Source of the DNA: a virus | DNA: 64,000 nt | IMG/VR virus record: IMGVR_UViG_3300028800_000060 | Coordinates: 1-64,000 of that record | Direction: 5' to 3' (one strand) | Part shown: positions 14,177 through 17,373 of the stretch, piece by piece | How the letters are laid out: every line of letters starts with the position of its first letter | Position numbering within the stretch: the first letter of the stretch is position 1 | Notes under the pieces: generated by a model | Databases searched by the model: none | Told to the model about the DNA's origin: nothing | The model's input: only the letters and a program-made list of their open reading frames with translations | Translations under genes and position numbers: made by a program

Positions 14177-15877
14177 ATGAAATACTATTACGACAGAAAT
14201 TCTTACATTATTGACGATCCTGAAATCAATGTTAGATTTGAAGAATTATTGTTCATGACGGATAATGATTTTGAAACTTGGGTTGATAAATTACGATCTA
14301 AAGTTTTACAAGTGTGGGATGAATATGGCGTTCCTCCATTAGGTGGAATTGATGAAAGAGATATGTGTGAAGAGTTCCGTAAGATGAGTGGAACTCCGGG
14401 GAAAACAATTTCACTCTATAAACCAAAATCGGGAGCAACAAAACCGTACATTGATCAGATGGATGGTAAAGCAAATGTAATTATAAATGATGGCTATATG
14501 GGTTCTTGTGTCAACCAATTTTTCGAGAACATGGCTAAAGCCAAGATTAATTACCAGACAAAAGTAACTGAAGAAGGAAGTTTTAGTGGATATGCCGTTT
14601 ATGATTTGTTCGCCAATGATAAATTTCGAAATAGAATGCAAAAGGGCTGCCGACGTCATTTCAGGAGAGATTCGTTCTATCGTTACTCTGCTTCCATTCC
14701 AAAGAACAGCGGCATCGGACTCGTACCAGCAGAAACAGGAAAAGAATGGGTTAGATTCTTCAAACAAGACTTTATTAAGTTCGGTGAGTATGGATACTGG
14801 CTTAATAGAGTAGAAGCGCCTGAAGAAGGAGAATTGGGAAGTGGTTATACTTCCATCGATCTTTCTCAGTTCTTGTGGTTGAGTAAAGCAGAAATTATCG
14901 AATTGGTAAGTCTTGGAATTATCCAAAGAAGTAGTTTGACAAATTTAGCCAAATTCGATACAGAAATGGATTTTATTGCCGGAGATTCTAGTTTAGAGAA
15001 TACATTAGCAACATTATCACGTGAATTAAAAGATGAAGAACAATACCATATTAGGTTTTATAAGAAGTCTGCGCGTATTTTTCCAGTTGGTTTCACCGCC
15101 TTTAAAATAGGCTACATACAAATTGCCGTTAATTTCCCACCAATGATTGCTAAGTATTTGTACGAGAAGTATACCGATCATTGCAAGGACCAAAAAGTAA
15201 TCAACATCTACGACCCCTCGGCCGGCTGGGGTGGACGTATTGCTGGAGCAATGACAGTTCAGGAAGATAGACATATCCATTATATTGGTACAGATCCCAA
15301 TATGGATAATTTTATTGATGAACTTGGTATTACTCGCTACGAATATCTTGCACAATTTATCAATCATTCACTATCATCTGGATGGGGTTATGAACCACAT
15401 ACTTTTGATGTATATCAATTGGGTTCTGAAGTAATTGGGAAAGATAAGAATTTCAAGAAATATAAAGGTAAGTTGGACTTAGTTTTTACTTCACCTCCAT
15501 ATTTTAATCGTGAAGGTTATTCGGAAGATGAAACCCAATCACTCAAGAAGTTCCCAGTTTACAAGAATTGGGTTGATGGTTTTTTAAGACCAACTTTAGA
15601 AACTGCGGTAGAATATTTGAAGCACGATAGATATCTCTTATGGAATGTTGCCGATATCTTTTGTGGTAAAGAATGTATCCCTATAGAACAAGATAGTAAC
15701 AAAATATTAAAATCTTTGGGTATGAAATTTATTGGTGTGGAGAAAATGTGCCTTGCCGGAATGCCAGGCGCGAATCGTGTTTCTCCTGAAACTGGTCTTC
15801 CTCAATGCAAAAATTTTTGCAAAATTAATGGGAAGTGGCATAAATATGAACCAATATTTGTTTGGTTTAAACCATGA
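14177..15877 (+). CDS. Large SAM-dependent amino-methyltransferase-fold protein (putative DNA N6A/N4C modification enzyme)
   Basis: 'YDPSAGWGGR' SAM-binding motif and 'FTSPPYF' catalytic motif; long N-terminal extension. Confidence 0.75.
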   Translation: MKYYYDRNSYIIDDPEINVRFEELLFMTDNDFETWVDKLRSKVLQVWDEYGVPPLGGIDERDMCEEFRKMSGTPGKTISLYKPKSGATKPYIDQMDGKANVIINDGYMGSCVNQFFENMAKAKINYQTKVTEEGSFSGYAVYDLFANDKFRNRMQKGCRRHFRRDSFYRYSASIPKNSGIGLVPAETGKEWVRFFKQDFIKFGEYGYWLNRVEAPEEGELGSGYTSIDLSQFLWLSKAEIIELVSLGIIQRSSLTNLAKFDTEMDFIAGDSSLENTLATLSRELKDEEQYHIRFYKKSARIFPVGFTAFKIGYIQIAVNFPPMIAKYLYEKYTDHCKDQKVINIYDPSAGWGGRIAGAMTVQEDRHIHYIGTDPNMDNFIDELGITRYEYLAQFINHSLSSGWGYEPHTFDVYQLGSEVIGKDKNFKKYKGKLDLVFTSPPYFNREGYSEDETQSLKKFPVYKNWVDGFLRPTLETAVEYLKHDRYLLWNVADIFCGKECIPIEQDSNKILKSLGMKFIGVEKMCLAGMPGANRVSPETGLPQCKNFCKINGKWHKYEPIFVWFKP

Positions 15878-15937
15878 CACAATTTCCTATGACGATTTGG
15901 AATTTTATGAAATAGAGGAAATCCTTTACAAAGAAAT

Positions 15938-16915
15938 GTGTTTGTTGATGAATTTGCATATATGTTAGATTTATCTATTCCCAATTATACACCGCAGCAT
16001 TATAAAAAACTAATTAATTTTTTAGCACCTATAGAAGAATACGCTGGTTACTCTATTAAGAGGGGAGAAAAATTTCATTTAGGCCCTATCCAAGGTATGA
16101 AGGTACTTCAATGTTTGCATGTGGTCCATTCTAATTTAGACCATATTAAGAAGAATTGTAATGGTGGTATCTTAACCGCCGCCGGTTTACCTTCCCCACA
16201 AACAATGATTGTATCTGCCGTAGCCAAATATTTTGGTCTCAAGTGTGCAATCACTACACCGAGGTTTGAAAATGGTAAAAGAGATTTTAATCGTATCAAT
16301 GCATCTGTTGCCCAAAAGCTTGGTGCTACTGTTTATGGTGTTGGTAATCCTAATCCTGCTGGGCCTGAACATGATGCGAAATGTTTAGTTGAGGAGTTAG
16401 GATACTATCAAATTAAGTTTGGTATGTGCGGTGATGTTGCTATGGAACCCGTGATAGAACAATGTGTTAATATTCCAGATTACGTTAGAGATATTGTTGT
16501 TATTAGTGGTTCAGGTTTAACTGCATTAAGTATTGTCCAGGGATGCAAGAAGTTTGAAAAGAATGTCAAACGAGTTGTTGCGGTTTGTTTGAGTAAACAT
16601 ATTATTGCAAATAAAGAGAAGTGGATAAATGATTTTACTCTCAAAGACCCTATTTTACAAATAGAAAAAACCAAATACGCATATAGAACAGAACACAAAT
16701 ATAAAGGTGGGTTTGATTTCGATTTGACCTATGAAAGTAAAGCATTTGAGTGGATGGTTGAACACTGTAAACCTTCAAAGACTGTTATGTTTTGGGTAGT
16801 TGGTAAAAAACTTTATGATCTTGATTTGATTGAACCCATAGATTGGCATATGTCACAACACGAAAAAGAATTACGAGAACCTATAAATAATTCCATAGAA
16901 AGGTTTTTCGTTTAA
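15938..16915 (+). CDS. PLP-dependent fold-type II enzyme (ACC deaminase/D-Cys desulfhydrase/TrpB-like)
   Basis: 'IKRGE...GMKV', 'SPQT..VSAVAKYFGLKC', 'SGSGLT', 'DLTYESKAF..M' match the PALP-family layout. Start uncertain (GTG). Confidence 0.7.
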   Translation: MFVDEFAYMLDLSIPNYTPQHYKKLINFLAPIEEYAGYSIKRGEKFHLGPIQGMKVLQCLHVVHSNLDHIKKNCNGGILTAAGLPSPQTMIVSAVAKYFGLKCAITTPRFENGKRDFNRINASVAQKLGATVYGVGNPNPAGPEHDAKCLVEELGYYQIKFGMCGDVAMEPVIEQCVNIPDYVRDIVVISGSGLTALSIVQGCKKFEKNVKRVVAVCLSKHIIANKEKWINDFTLKDPILQIEKTKYAYRTEHKYKGGFDFDLTYESKAFEWMVEHCKPSKTVMFWVVGKKLYDLDLIEPIDWHMSQHEKELREPINNSIERFFV

Positions 16916-17373
16916 TGTTGAGATTGGCTAAATTAGAAGAAGTTTCCGAAATATGCCGGGCATTTCAAAAATTTGAAAAGCGTCAGAAGGAAAAAGGATT
17001 ACCTCCCGTTTTTTCTTTTGTGCGTCATGACTATTTAAAACGTTGTGTTGAATCCGGAACTTTATATTACGATAATGGTATGATTGCTGTTTTAAAACAA
17101 TACAAAGTTAAAACAAAGTATGGCTCGCGCCCGGGCGACTGGTGTATGCCGGAGGTTCTTAGTGTAACTGATAACCCATTACACGTAATTTCGTTTTATA
17201 AACGAATTATAGCAGAGAAGGTAAAAAGTGCTCGGTTATACGGAACAATCCGCGATGATAATACCATTTCTTTAGCTTTCCATACAGCATTAGGATATAG
17301 ACGGGTTGGTGATATTAGTTGGAGTAATGGAACTTTACCAGGTGGTGTTTTCGTTTATGAGTCTAAAAATTAA
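16915..17373 (+). CDS. GNAT-family acetyltransferase
   Basis: 'LRLAKLEEV...TIRDDNTISLAFHTALGYRRVG' (GNAT motif B). Confidence 0.7.
   Translation: MLRLAKLEEVSEICRAFQKFEKRQKEKGLPPVFSFVRHDYLKRCVESGTLYYDNGMIAVLKQYKVKTKYGSRPGDWCMPEVLSVTDNPLHVISFYKRIIAEKVKSARLYGTIRDDNTISLAFHTALGYRRVGDISWSNGTLPGGVFVYESKN

What the first reader, a model, noticed from the sequence alone, without database searches (positions are those of the whole stretch)
14177..17373. MTase-fold + PLP enzyme + GNAT triad as a candidate new DNA hypermodification pathway
Seen: a 566-aa SPPY/DPSAGWGG protein, then a PLP fold-II enzyme, then a GNAT, with the PLP enzyme ending in a clamp-like motif (see next finding). Established: in thymidine-hypermodifying phages (ViI, M6, PaMx11 types), PLP enzymes and acetyltransferases tailor amino-acid adducts on DNA. 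Inference: here the first step may be done by the SAM-dependent enzyme, for example aminocarboxypropyl rather than methyl transfer to an exocyclic amine, followed by PLP decarboxylation/deamination and N-acetylation. No 5hmdU kinase or amino-acid:DNA transferase is visible in this window, so the chemistry would differ from known pathways.
Basis: inference. Interest (0 to 1): 0.85.

Follow-up and report, generated by a model that had tools for sequence, protein, structure and literature searches.

The report
Methyltransferase-like, PLP, GNAT DNA-modification module
An uncultured T4-like phage carries a methyltransferase-like enzyme, a relative of the only proven "amino-acid-on-DNA" decarboxylases, and an acyltransferase; these are linked or fused in hundreds of other phages, so they probably build an undescribed side chain on the phage's DNA bases, though no chemistry has been measured.

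Summary
The three genes are real and as described: 14177-15877 (566 aa, DPSAGWGG + SPPY), 15938-16915 (PLP fold II) and 16915-17373 (GNAT fold).

- **PLP protein.** It is not a generic ACC deaminase. Its family matches ViI gp226 (hhalign 98.9%, E 1e-17) and M6 gp52, the two proven decarboxylases of amino acids attached to DNA.
- **Linkage.** In 24 of 26 assessable PLP loci, from three unrelated phage backbones, a P0001-type methyltransferase domain lies within 4 kb.
- **Fusions.** Natural fusions exist in both orders, and PLP-GNAT and PLP-DUF3109 fusions exist too.
- **Partners.** Of 80 T4-like loci with the methyltransferase, 30 have a PLP partner, 27 a GNAT and 9 a glutamine-synthetase-like ligase. 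These partners interleave on the tree.
- **Tail.** The PLP enzyme ends in the same tail as the phage's own DNA polymerase.
- **Known routes.** The genome lacks every known hmU/hmC/TET/7-deazaguanine route.

Best reading (about 0.4): the enzyme transfers the aminocarboxypropyl part of SAM to a base amine, the group is decarboxylated on DNA, and the amine is then N-acylated, probably from the adjacent ACP/FkbH/O-methyltransferase set.

This chemistry is unproven, and relatives that carry the methyltransferase alone may simply methylate. This scan has already noted the same methyltransferase-PLP pairing in other genomes.

The parts
12193..12465 (+). Acyl carrier protein (90 aa). Probable acyl donor carrier for the GNAT.
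   Evidence: Pfam PP-binding, 23.6 bits against a cut-off of 20.8. Every genome with a P0003-type GNAT also has an acyl-activating gene set beside it (ACP proven only here and in L015): L008/L014 have a 99-aa ORF, an SDR and an AMP-ligase; L015 has an ACP-HAD fusion.
12481..13437 (+). FkbH-like HAD-IIIC enzyme (318 aa). FkbH enzymes load a glyceryl unit on ACP (established for the FkbH family).
   Evidence: NCBIfam TIGR01686 FkbH domain, 149 bits against a cut-off of 146.65. Membership of the pathway is inferred from recurrence with GNAT+PLP in L015.
13416..14156 (+). TylF-type O-methyltransferase (246 aa). Possibly methylates the ACP-bound acyl group.
   Evidence: Pfam TylF, E 2.5e-76. Membership is inferred from position only.
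14177..15877 (+). P0001: a phage-specific N-terminal domain (1-~310) plus a class I SAM-dependent amino-group transferase domain (~311-566; motif I DPSAGWGGR, motif IV SPPY). Proposed installer of the DNA adduct.
   Evidence: AlphaFold pLDDT 89.7. Best structural matches are the Trm11/Trm14/TrmN m2G methyltransferases (Z about 15), then METTL5 and PrmC. There are 1989 homologues. The gene is syntenic between gp46 and rnh/gp45 in 67 of 80 T4-like loci. It is fused to the PLP domain in P0178, P0189 and P0047.
15938..16915 (+). P0002: fold-type II PLP enzyme of the ViI gp226 / M6 gp52 family. Proposed decarboxylase of an amino-acid adduct on DNA.
   Evidence: hhalign against ViI gp226: 98.9%, E 1.2e-17 over 260 columns. 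Against M6 gp52: 94.9%, E 4.5e-8. PHROG hits: phrog_3650 and phrog_7093. K55 is invariant. A methyltransferase lies within 4 kb in 24 of 26 assessable loci.
16889..16915 (+). C-terminal tail of the PLP enzyme (...SIERFFV), shared with the phage's DNA polymerase. Candidate sliding-clamp tether.
   Evidence: Only 3 of 264 genome ORFs have [ED][RK]F[FMLY] in their last 12 residues: this protein, gp43 and the canonical DNA methyltransferase. 0.39 are expected by chance. In the PolB-phage group the FF-COOH end occurs in PLP 36/46, PolB 29/36, F3 29/29 and other ORFs 4/546.
16915..17373 (+). P0003: GNAT-fold acyltransferase (152 aa), translationally coupled to the PLP gene. Proposed N-acylase of the amine.
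   Evidence: Foldseek best hits are SbzI (whose solved complex 8zt4 with its carrier protein SbzG was also among the hits), Ard1 and ArsN. The TAATG overlap is seen. Distant homologues lie directly upstream of the methyltransferase in 27 of 80 T4-like loci, and one of them passes Pfam Acetyltransf_1. A PLP-GNAT fusion exists in P0208.
17306..20251 (+). GT10 fucosyltransferase-like, FkbM methyltransferase and double GT2 genes. Context only; membership of the pathway is uncertain.
   Evidence: Pfam. These genes are conserved beside the module only in close relatives L008/L014. Most methyltransferase+PLP or methyltransferase+GNAT loci have no sugar genes nearby.
25896..26636 (+). gp45 sliding clamp, the proposed docking partner of the PLP tail (context).
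   Evidence: Pfam gp45-slide_C. The start was chosen at the ATG preceded by AGAAGGAG.
51815..54478 (+). gp43 family B DNA polymerase, ending ...DMEKFFK (context for the tail).
   Evidence: Pfam DNA_pol_B and DNA_pol_B_exo1. Tail seen.

Best explanation
The genes 14177-17373, probably together with the ACP/FkbH/O-methyltransferase genes at 12193-14156, encode a post-replicative DNA base hypermodification pathway.

Proposed steps, all inferred:
1. P0001 flips a base. Using the SPPY amino-group pocket, it transfers the 3-amino-3-carboxypropyl (acp) part of SAM, not the methyl group, to an exocyclic amine. By the SPPY motif this is N4 of cytosine, or else N6 of adenine. The by-product would be methylthioadenosine.
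2. P0002, held at the replication fork by a polymerase-like C-terminal clamp-binding tail, forms a Schiff base with the free alpha-amine of the adduct and decarboxylates it on the DNA. This gives an N-(3-aminopropyl) base, as ViI gp226 and M6 gp52 do with serine and glycine adducts.
3. P0003 N-acylates the new primary amine, probably with an ACP-borne (O-methyl)glyceryl unit made by FkbH and the TylF-like enzyme.

Shown here: gene identity, family membership of the PLP enzyme, fold of the other two proteins, linkage, fusions, tail sharing, and absence of the known routes.
For: **PLP family membership.**
- hhalign against ViI gp226: 98.9%, E 1.2e-17. Against M6 gp52: 94.9%.
- gp226 identity was checked as YP_004327553. 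Both enzymes decarboxylate amino acids on DNA (PMC8989533).
- The family matches ACC deaminase structures only at E 5e-4.

**A PLP enzyme needs a free alpha-amino acid on its substrate.** The only conserved partner is the methyltransferase-like protein:
- 39 of 49 PLP loci have it within 4 kb, and 24 of 26 where both flanks are present.
- These loci come from three unrelated backbones: T4-like, PolB/DnaB/RNR marine phages, and a PolA/DnaN phage.

**Rosetta-stone fusions**:
- PLP + P0001 N-domain + methyltransferase (P0178).
- P0001 N-domain + methyltransferase + PLP (P0189).
- PLP + N-domain (P0047, six member sequences).
- PLP + GNAT (P0208).
- PLP + DUF3109 (P0274).
- PLP + ParB + methyltransferase (P0305, P0310).

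**Partners of the methyltransferase.**
- In 80 T4-like loci the partners within 4 kb are PLP-like 30, GNAT-like 27, glutamine-synthetase-like ligase 9 and none 18.
- They interleave on the methyltransferase tree.
- All these partners act on an amine or an amino acid, which a methyl group does not offer.

**DNA context.**
- The PLP tail equals the polymerase tail: 3 of 264 ORFs against 0.39 expected.
- FF-COOH ends: PLP 36/46, PolB 29/36, F3 29/29, others 4/546.
- In the PolB-phage group the gene between PolB and PLP is a processivity factor (phrog_223).

**No known installer.**
- No Thymidylat_synt, TGT, Tet_JBP or C5 methyltransferase family hit in the genome.
- No M6 AADT, 5-HMUDK or radical SAM homologue.

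**Precedent.** A methyltransferase homologue puts a SAM-derived handle on phage DNA in the CmoA/CmoX/CmoY system (PMC12783734).
Against: - No chemistry has been measured anywhere in this family, and no cultured phage carries a close homologue.
- P0001 has all the canonical methyltransferase motifs. Its nearest structures are true methyltransferases, and nothing in the sequence marks it as an acp transferase.
- 18 of 80 loci have no partner. These include the closest relatives of this very gene (L066, L067, L069-L073, 72-79% identical). In them the enzyme works alone, most simply as a methyltransferase.
- The nearest structural matches act on tRNA or rRNA, so an RNA target is not excluded.
- The tail motif was defined after the fact, and clamp binding could not be tested.
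- A later check in this scan priced the same bold reading, for a related methyltransferase-PLP family, at 15 in 100.
Confidence: 0.4

Rival explanations
1. P0001 is an ordinary orphan DNA amino-methyltransferase (m4C or m6A) that protects the genome. The PLP and GNAT enzymes also work on DNA, but on an adduct installed by some other, unidentified enzyme, or they assist in an unknown way.
For: P0001 has canonical motifs I and IV and a methyltransferase fold. The methyltransferase occurs alone in 18 of 80 loci, including its closest relatives. SPPY is typical of N4-cytosine methyltransferases (established knowledge). An earlier check in this scan favoured this reading for a related family.
Against: No other conserved candidate installer lies in the PLP loci. 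PLP depends on the methyltransferase (24 of 26) while the reverse does not hold. This is the pattern of an installer with an optional tailoring enzyme. Fusions occur in both domain orders. 62 of 80 methyltransferase loci carry an amine- or amino-acid-tailoring partner within 4 kb. The genome already has a canonical N6_N4 methyltransferase at 60569-61297.
Confidence: 0.2
2. The order is reversed. The PLP enzyme decarboxylates free SAM to decarboxylated SAM, and P0001 acts as an aminopropyltransferase, like spermidine synthase (also a class I methyltransferase fold). It puts aminopropyl on a base amine, and the GNAT then acylates it. Phages without the PLP gene would use host decarboxylated SAM, or would methylate.
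For: SAM is itself an amino acid joined to a nucleoside, like the substrates of gp226 and gp52. Aminopropyltransferases (BpsA) appear among the structural matches, though not at the top. The end product is the same, and this order fits PLP being optional.
Against: The polymerase-like tail on the PLP enzyme argues that it works on DNA, not on a free cofactor. Both characterised relatives act on DNA. P0001 shows no spermidine-synthase-type motif by eye.
Confidence: 0.1
3. The target is not DNA. The methyltransferase-like enzyme modifies tRNA, rRNA, a protein amine or a nucleotide pool, with PLP and GNAT tailoring that product.
For: The best structural matches are the tRNA m2G enzymes Trm11/Trm14/TrmN, the rRNA enzyme METTL5 and the protein enzyme PrmC. 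GNAT matches include protein N-terminal acetyltransferases. The phage carries a large tRNA region. acp modifications are so far known only in RNA (established knowledge).
Against: Homology of the PLP enzyme to DNA-acting decarboxylases. The tail is shared with the DNA polymerase and a DNA methyltransferase. The genes sit between polymerase, clamp and clamp loader. Relatives are fused to ParB and N6_N4 DNA methyltransferase domains.
Confidence: 0.12
4. The triad belongs to the surrounding sugar island (ACP, FkbH, TylF, GT10, FkbM, GT2) and decorates a glycan on the virion, for example the collagen-like fibre at 855-3740, or on the host surface.
For: The genes are embedded among glycosyltransferase and sugar-tailoring genes. 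ACP/ligase/reductase sets that N-acylate amino sugars are known from bacterial O-antigen loci (established knowledge). Sugar genes also follow the module in the PolB-phage group.
Against: Most methyltransferase+PLP and methyltransferase+GNAT loci have no sugar genes nearby. Sugar pathways use fold-type I PLP aminotransferases, not this family. See also the polymerase-like tail and the fusions to DNA methyltransferase and ParB domains.
Confidence: 0.08

Closest known systems
Thymidine hypermodification pathways of Salmonella phage ViI (5-NeOmdU), Pseudomonas phage M6 (5-NedU) and PaMx11 (5-AcNmdU); PMC5889632, PMC8989533
   Same: The PLP enzyme is of the same family as gp226 and gp52. The logic is the same: an amino-acid adduct on DNA is trimmed by a PLP decarboxylase, and in PaMx11 it is then acetylated by a GNAT. 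Tailoring genes are combined in many permutations.
   Different: No dUMP hydroxymethylase, 5-hmdU DNA kinase, aGPT-Pplase2 amino-acid:DNA transferase or radical SAM isomerase is present. The conserved partner is a SAM-dependent amino-group transferase fold. The adduct would therefore sit on an exocyclic amine of a canonical base and derive from SAM, not from a free amino acid on 5-hmdU.
CmoA/CmoX/CmoY 5-carboxymethylcytosine system of Synechococcus phage S-B43 (PMC12783734)
   Same: A methyltransferase homologue in a cyanophage (Synechococcus phage S-B43) installs a larger SAM-derived handle on DNA, and an amide ligase then extends it. Ligase partners (glutamine-synthetase-like) also occur here.
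   Different: CmoX is a C5-cytosine methyltransferase homologue that uses carboxy-SAM made by CmoA. No C5 methyltransferase homologue was found in this genome; CmoA was not searched for. Here the fold is of the amino-methyltransferase type and the partner is a PLP enzyme.
N4-cytosine / N6-adenine DNA methyltransferases (PF01555) and the Trm11/Trm14/TrmN m2G RNA methyltransferases
   Same: Class I fold, with motif I and a (D/N/S)PPY motif IV that binds an exocyclic amine. Z is about 15 to Trm11/Trm14.
   Different: The Pfam score is below the gathering cut-off and the order is motif I before motif IV (sequence). A 300-residue phage-only N-terminal domain replaces THUMP or a target-recognition domain. 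The protein is obligately linked or fused to amine-tailoring enzymes.
SAM-dependent aminocarboxypropyl transferases of RNA (Tyw2, Tsr3, TapT/DTWD) and aminopropyltransferases (spermidine synthase, BpsA)
   Same: They give the proposed chemistry: the acp or aminopropyl group of SAM or decarboxylated SAM is moved to a nucleobase or an amine. Tyw2 and spermidine synthase use the class I methyltransferase fold (established knowledge).
   Different: No specific sequence or structural kinship was found. A chain I take from memory to be Tyw2/Trm5-like (PH0793, deposited only as 'putative transferase') and BpsA appear only among generic fold matches. No acp modification of DNA is known.
DpdM (DUF3109/YkgJ family), the dPreQ1 N-methyltransferase of phage DNA (PMC10516641)
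   Same: In the PolB-phage group a Cys-rich CxxCxxxCC protein (F3) sits between the PLP and methyltransferase genes and also carries the FF tail. A PLP-DUF3109 fusion exists. DpdM acts on a primary alkylamine attached to a base in DNA.
   Different: F3 is absent from this window. Its Pfam match is weak (22.6 bits against a cut-off of 23), and tblastn finds no cultured-phage homologue.

Membership tests
gp226/gp52-type PLP-dependent decarboxylases of amino-acid:nucleobase conjugates (phrog_3650 / phrog_7093) | Fold-type II PLP enzyme with a Schiff-base lysine | tested here: met
   PALP hit. K55 lies in GMKVLQ (family consensus GSKVRQ), is invariant in 29 sequences, and aligns to the GNKxRK lysine stretch of ACC deaminase (1f2d) and to the GSKLRQ stretch of gp226.
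gp226/gp52-type PLP-dependent decarboxylases of amino-acid:nucleobase conjugates (phrog_3650 / phrog_7093) | Significant full-length similarity to the characterised members | tested here: met
   hhalign of family profile A1 against ViI gp226: 98.9%, E 1.2e-17 over 260 columns. Against M6 gp52: 94.9%, E 4.5e-8 over 243 columns. PHROG hits: phrog_3650 at 4.9e-16 and phrog_7093 at 8e-9. The C-terminal motifs Y(E/D)xKAW and LFWxVG are shared.
gp226/gp52-type PLP-dependent decarboxylases of amino-acid:nucleobase conjugates (phrog_3650 / phrog_7093) | Decarboxylates an amino acid attached to a base in polymeric DNA | not testable with these tools
   Needs an enzyme assay. Only indirect support is available, from the polymerase-like tail.
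Thymidine hypermodification pathway (M6/ViI/PaMx11 type) | dUMP hydroxymethylase, 5-hmdU DNA kinase and aGPT-Pplase2 amino-acid:DNA transferase present | tested here: not met
   PF00303 is absent from the 98%-complete genome. tblastn with M6 gp51, gp53, gp54 and gp58 finds nothing at E below 0.1 in the genome, and nothing in 129 related loci.
N6/N4 DNA amino-methyltransferases (Pfam PF01555) | SAM-binding motif I and catalytic motif IV (D/N/S)PPY | tested here: met
   DPSAGWGGR (346-354) and SPPY (439-442) are invariant. The class I fold model has pLDDT 89.7.
N6/N4 DNA amino-methyltransferases (Pfam PF01555) | Scores above the family's curated threshold over the whole domain | tested here: not met
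   21.4 bits against a cut-off of 26.7, and only profile positions 2-70 of 221 match. A profile search of the PDB finds no hit.
N6/N4 DNA amino-methyltransferases (Pfam PF01555) | Transfers a methyl group to DNA | not testable with these tools
   This is the key open point. It is decided by whether the by-product is S-adenosylhomocysteine or methylthioadenosine.
GNAT acyltransferases | GNAT fold | tested here: met
   Foldseek gives 124 PDB matches at E up to 1e-3, and every one listed (about 35 shown) is a GNAT. The top hits are SbzI, Ard1 and ArsN, with TM 0.5-0.66.
GNAT acyltransferases | Sequence match to a GNAT profile, including the acyl-CoA pyrophosphate loop (Q/R-x-x-G-x-G/A) | tested here: inconclusive
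   P0003 has no Pfam hit. A distant homologue, L134:9528-9989, passes Acetyltransf_1 (23.0 against 20.7 bits). No clear Q/RxxGxG/A loop is seen by eye in P0003, which would fit an acyl-ACP donor.
SAM-dependent aminocarboxypropyl transferases (Tyw2, Tsr3, TapT) | Specific homology to a known acp transferase | tested here: inconclusive
   Only generic class I fold matches were found. 3k6r (PH0793, deposited as 'putative transferase'), which I take from memory to be Tyw2/Trm5-like, ranks 24th in Foldseek. Absence of a specific match does not exclude the chemistry.
T4-type sliding-clamp clients (C-terminal clamp-binding peptide) | C-terminal tail like that of the phage's own polymerase | tested here: met
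   PLP ends ...SIERFFV, gp43 ...DMEKFFK and the DNA methyltransferase ...FIDRFMK. These are the only 3 of 264 ORFs with such a tail. The same pattern is seen in the PolB-phage group.
T4-type sliding-clamp clients (C-terminal clamp-binding peptide) | Binds the clamp | not testable with these tools

The most novel reading that the evidence does not exclude
The whole stretch 12193-20251 is one assembly line working on DNA. An acp group from SAM is placed on a base and decarboxylated on the DNA by a clamp-tethered PLP enzyme. The amine is N-acylated with an ACP-borne O-methylglyceryl unit, and the result is then glycosylated and methylated by the adjacent GT10, GT2 and FkbM enzymes. This would be natural-product-style, carrier-protein-dependent chemistry on a DNA base.
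Probability: 0.1. Interest if true: 0.93.

Novelty: new variant of a known kind. Interest (0 to 1): 0.78.

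Why it matters
All known complex phage DNA modifications start from a C5-hydroxymethyl, C5-methyl or C5-carboxymethyl pyrimidine, or from 7-deazaguanine. This module has none of those entry points, yet it keeps the tailoring enzyme proven to work on DNA-borne amino acids.

If the methyltransferase-like enzyme delivers the amino-acid part of SAM to a base, that would be a new entry reaction for DNA hypermodification and the first acp or aminopropyl mark in DNA.

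The family is large. P0001 has 1989 homologues, more than 590 viral contigs carry it, and the PLP family has 994 cluster representatives. It spans at least three unrelated marine and soil phage lineages.

Such a mark would affect restriction evasion, sequencing and amplification of environmental phage DNA, and the enzyme toolbox for DNA labelling.

The hypothesis can be tested directly with three genes in E. coli.

Tried and rejected
- **Phage record searches.** Megablast of 12-21 kb against phage records found nothing. tblastn of P0001 found only partial, 26-32% identical hits in Twort-like Staphylococcus, Bacteroides and Vibrio phages. No cultured model phage is available.
- **PDB sequence searches.** Profile searches for P0001 and P0003 found nothing.
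- **N-terminal domain of P0001.** The Atlas search found only viral hypothetical proteins, with no known fold assigned.
- **Complex prediction.** Binding to the clamp or to P0001 is therefore untested.
- **F3 against cultured phages, including DpdM carriers.** tblastn gave no match. The DpdM link rests on a weak Pfam hit and one PLP-DUF3109 fusion.
- **Promoter and terminator scan of 11.8-20.7 kb.** No enrichment over shuffles, so no operon claim is made from it.
- **7-deazaguanine idea.** It was raised by QueD/QueE/FolE beside the pair in L012/L052. It was dropped for this phage because no TGT/DpdA match was found here or in four related records.
- **hmC/hmU/TET glycosylation route for the neighbouring glycosyltransferases.** No thymidylate-synthase-like or C5 methyltransferase gene was found. 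The Tet_JBP search found nothing, but its control rang in no genome, so that absence is weak.
- **Plain ACC deaminase / D-cysteine desulfhydrase reading of the PLP enzyme.** Rejected as the closest family: E 5e-4 to the structures against 1e-17 to gp226.

Full report
**What is there**

The window is the first 64 kb of a 175,698-bp, 98%-complete IMG/VR virus record. It is a T4-like phage. The relevant genes run as follows:

- gp47/gp46 (Mre11/Rad50-like) at 9236-12046
- gp45 clamp at 25896-26636
- gp44/gp62 clamp loader and RegA after 27456
- gp43 family B polymerase at 51815-54478

Between gp46 and gp45 lie these genes:

| Coordinates | Gene |
|---|---|
| 12193-12465 | acyl carrier protein |
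| 12481-13437 | FkbH-type HAD-IIIC enzyme |
| 13416-14156 | TylF-type O-methyltransferase |
| 14177-15877 | P0001 (566 aa) |
| 15938-16915 | P0002 (325 aa) |
| 16915-17373 | P0003 (152 aa) |
| 17306-20251 | GT10, FkbM and a double GT2 |
| 20634-21698 | IMP dehydrogenase / GMP reductase-like gene |
| 21658-23862 | 734-aa phrog_459 protein |

- P0001 carries DPSAGWGG and SPPY, both invariant in 54 homologues.
- P0002 is a fold-type II PLP protein with an invariant lysine, K55.
- P0003 has no sequence-family hit, but its model (pLDDT 84.6) matches only GNAT acyltransferases.
- The PLP stop and the GNAT start overlap in TAATG.

**What the PLP enzyme is**

The profile of 29 family members matches ACC deaminase structures only weakly (E 5e-4). 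A weak tblastn hit to Escherichia phage AV101 led to a 397-aa ORF. That ORF is 91.6% identical to Vi01_182 = YP_004327553. This is ViI gp226, shown experimentally to decarboxylate O-serinyl-thymidine in DNA (PMC8989533, Table 1).

| Comparison | Result |
|---|---|
| Family profile vs ViI gp226 | hhalign 98.9%, E 1.2e-17, 260 columns |
| Family profile vs M6 gp52 (the other proven enzyme) | hhalign 94.9%, E 4.5e-8 |

A shorter PLP-like family (243-267 aa) sits directly upstream of the P0001 orthologue in many T4-like loci.

- It is 28% identical to M6 gp52 over its full length (E 5e-14).
- It hits phrog_7093 at E 1.8e-43.
- It keeps the lysine, the glycine-rich phosphate loop and the motifs TYDAKAW and LFWNVG.

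P0002 is therefore a member of the phage family of DNA-adduct decarboxylases. It is not a housekeeping ACC deaminase.

**What P0001 is**

The AlphaFold model is confident (pLDDT 89.7, pTM 0.88). Residues from about 311 to 566 form a class I SAM-dependent fold. The nearest solved structures are all amino-group methyltransferases with a (D/N)PP(Y/F) pocket:

- the m2G tRNA enzymes Trm11, Trm14 and TrmN (Z about 15, rmsd about 3 Å, about 180 residues)
- then METTL5, PrmC and N6AMT1

Residues 1 to about 310 form a phage-only domain of no known fold.

The family is very large: 1989 homologues and more than 590 viral contigs. In 67 of the 80 best loci the gene lies just after gp46.

**Linkage**

Of 49 viral loci that encode the PLP enzyme, 39 have a P0001-type methyltransferase domain within 4 kb. 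Among the 26 loci with at least 3 kb on both sides, 24 do.

These loci come from three unrelated backbones:

1. T4-like phages.
2. A marine group with DnaB, class II RNR and PolB. Its gene order is PolB, processivity factor (phrog_223), PLP, a Cys-rich CxxCxxxCC protein (F3), one or two methyltransferase copies, then clamp loader.
3. A complete 108.8-kb PolA/DnaN phage with the order QueD, QueE, FolE, methyltransferase, PLP, a 722-aa N6_N4 methyltransferase, PolA.

Seen from the methyltransferase side, the 80 T4-like loci have these partners within 4 kb:

| Partner within 4 kb | Loci (of 80) |
|---|---|
| PLP-like gene | 30 |
| GNAT-like gene | 27 |
| Glutamine-synthetase-like ligase | 9 |
| None of these | 18 |

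On a quick maximum-likelihood tree of the methyltransferase domain the partner types interleave. At least 10 changes are needed for PLP and 6 for GNAT. Our gene sits in a clade of six where PLP+GNAT carriers and partner-free genomes alternate.

**Fusions**

A search of 1.84 billion cluster representatives with the PLP profile gave 994 hits. Among the 20 long ones:

| Protein | Length | Architecture |
|---|---|---|
| P0178 | 796 aa | PLP + P0001 N-domain + methyltransferase domain |
| P0189 | 829 aa | P0001 N-domain + methyltransferase domain + PLP |
| P0047 | 567 aa, six members | PLP + N-domain; the methyltransferase domain follows after a frame change |
| P0208 | 448 aa | PLP + GNAT-like |
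| P0274 | 433 aa | PLP + DUF3109 |
| P0305, P0310 | 719, 917 aa | PLP + ParB + N6_N4 methyltransferase |
| five others (P0270, P0275, P0277, P0282, P0323) | 566-737 aa | PLP joined to a partial match to the P0001 methyltransferase domain (motif IV region) |

Fusion in both orders is strong evidence that the methyltransferase-like and PLP proteins act in one pathway. The PLP-GNAT fusion extends this to the third gene.

**DNA as the substrate**

In this genome only 3 of 264 ORFs carry [ED][RK]F[FMLY] in their last 12 residues, against 0.39 expected by chance:

- the PLP enzyme (...SIERFFV)
- the DNA polymerase (...DMEKFFK)
- the canonical N6_N4 DNA methyltransferase at 60569-61297 (...FIDRFMK)

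In the PolB-phage group the C-terminal FF occurs as follows:

| Protein | Ends in FF |
|---|---|
| PLP | 36 of 46 |
| PolB | 29 of 36 |
| F3 | 29 of 29 |
| Methyltransferase | 0 of 40 |
| Other ORFs | 4 of 546 |

It is established that the C-terminal tail of the T4/RB69 polymerase binds the gp45 clamp. Sharing the polymerase's tail, beside the clamp gene, therefore suggests a clamp-tethered enzyme working on DNA.

**Absence of known routes**

- The genome has no thymidylate-synthase-like gene, so no dCMP or dUMP hydroxymethylase.
- It has no TGT/DpdA match, no Tet_JBP match (the control for this family was silent, so this absence is weak) and no C5 methyltransferase.
- It has no homologue of M6 gp51, gp53, gp54 or gp58.

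**Mechanism**

A PLP decarboxylase of this family needs a free alpha-amino acid hanging on the polymer. The only conserved partner is a SAM-binding transferase with an amino-group pocket. The only part of SAM that is an alpha-amino acid is the 3-amino-3-carboxypropyl group. The partners that alternate with PLP (GNAT, amide ligase, DpdM-like protein) all act on an amine or a carboxylate, and a methyl group offers neither.

The most coherent reading is therefore:

1. acp transfer to an exocyclic amine. SPPY suggests N4 of cytosine by analogy with m4C enzymes.
2. Decarboxylation on DNA to aminopropyl.
3. N-acylation of the amine.

The P0003 subfamily of GNAT has six sequences in the protein database search, and a 35%-identical relative in L015. 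It is always beside an acyl-activating gene set:

- ACP, FkbH and O-methyltransferase in this window
- a 99-aa ORF, an SDR and an AMP-ligase in L008/L014
- an ACP-HAD fusion in L015

Its best structural match, SbzI, was also matched in its solved complex with a carrier protein (8zt4). An ACP-borne acyl donor is therefore more likely than acetyl-CoA.

I put about 0.4 on this chain. Roughly 0.8 goes to a DNA-directed modification module of some kind.

**Against**

- Nothing in the P0001 sequence distinguishes acp from methyl transfer.
- Its closest relatives (L066, L067, L069-L073) have no partner and may simply methylate.
- Its nearest structures act on RNA.
- No cultured phage carries the system.
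- A later check in this scan priced the same bold reading, for a related ParB-methyltransferase-PLP family, at 15 in 100. The ground was that most members lacked a partner. In the family studied here 62 of 80 loci do have one, which weakens that objection but does not remove it.

**Relation to earlier notes of the scan**

The methyltransferase-PLP pairing, its fusions and the gp226/gp52 kinship were noted before on other genomes. I re-derived them here from this window's own proteins. New here are:

- the count of alternative partners around this methyltransferase family
- the tail statistics in two phage groups
- the processivity-factor neighbour
- the two full-length fusions with P0001-type proteins
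- the constant pairing of this GNAT subfamily with an acyl-activating/ACP-type gene set

**Verdict**

It is a new variant of phage DNA hypermodification, with a new kind of entry enzyme if the reading is right.

Noticed in passing
window 60569-61297: Canonical N6_N4 DNA methyltransferase (147 bits). Its C-terminus, ...FIDRFMK, resembles the tails of the polymerase and the PLP enzyme, so it may also be clamp-tethered.
   Followed up: partly
window 20634-21698: IMP dehydrogenase / GMP reductase-like gene (phrog_9582). In the closest relatives it lies right after the methyltransferase (gp46, methyltransferase, 82-aa ORF, this gene). A role in purine pool remodelling is possible.
   Followed up: no
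L147:4331-6678: A PLP + P0001-N-domain fusion ORF is followed by the methyltransferase domain in another frame, with overlapping reading frames. This is a frameshift, a sequencing error or a true split. A tyrosine integrase and a serine recombinase lie upstream, so this copy may sit on an integrating element.
   Followed up: partly
P0251 (765 aa, representative library): The PLP domain is fused to a region with a weak LPG_synthase_C match (E 1.6e-4). That fold, as I recall it, belongs to aminoacyl-tRNA-dependent transferases. If so, some lineages may install the amino acid from aminoacyl-tRNA instead of SAM.
   Followed up: no
L019, L032-L038 (PolB-phage group): The family B polymerase is in two pieces (about 520 and about 270 aa), and in L019 an extra 277-aa ORF lies between them. 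This suggests an intron, an intein or a homing-endonuclease insertion.
   Followed up: no
L027:2838-5642: A 934-aa protein with CarboxypepD_reg and TonB-receptor Plug domains is encoded inside a phage replication module, next to a glutamine-synthetase-like gene.
   Followed up: no
L052 (= G003, complete 108.8-kb phage), about 5000-8700 of L012: QueD, QueE and FolE are present, but no TGT/DpdA match was found anywhere in the record. QueC was not seen in the 17-kb locus and was not searched for. A 7-carboxy-7-deazaguanine route with an unrecognised inserting enzyme is possible, or a different use of these genes.
   Followed up: partly
L083:4981-5775 and homologues: A SET-domain protein (60 bits) is encoded between gp47 and gp46 in several marine T4-like phages.
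   Followed up: no
window 24260-25426: A MoxR/CbbQ-like AAA_5 ATPase lies between the 734-aa phrog_459 protein and gp45.
   Followed up: no
L126:8384-9049, L147:3657-4331: A small canonical N6_N4 methyltransferase (about 220 aa) sits directly upstream of the PLP gene in some loci. These phages therefore carry two different amino-methyltransferase-type genes flanking the PLP enzyme.
   Followed up: no
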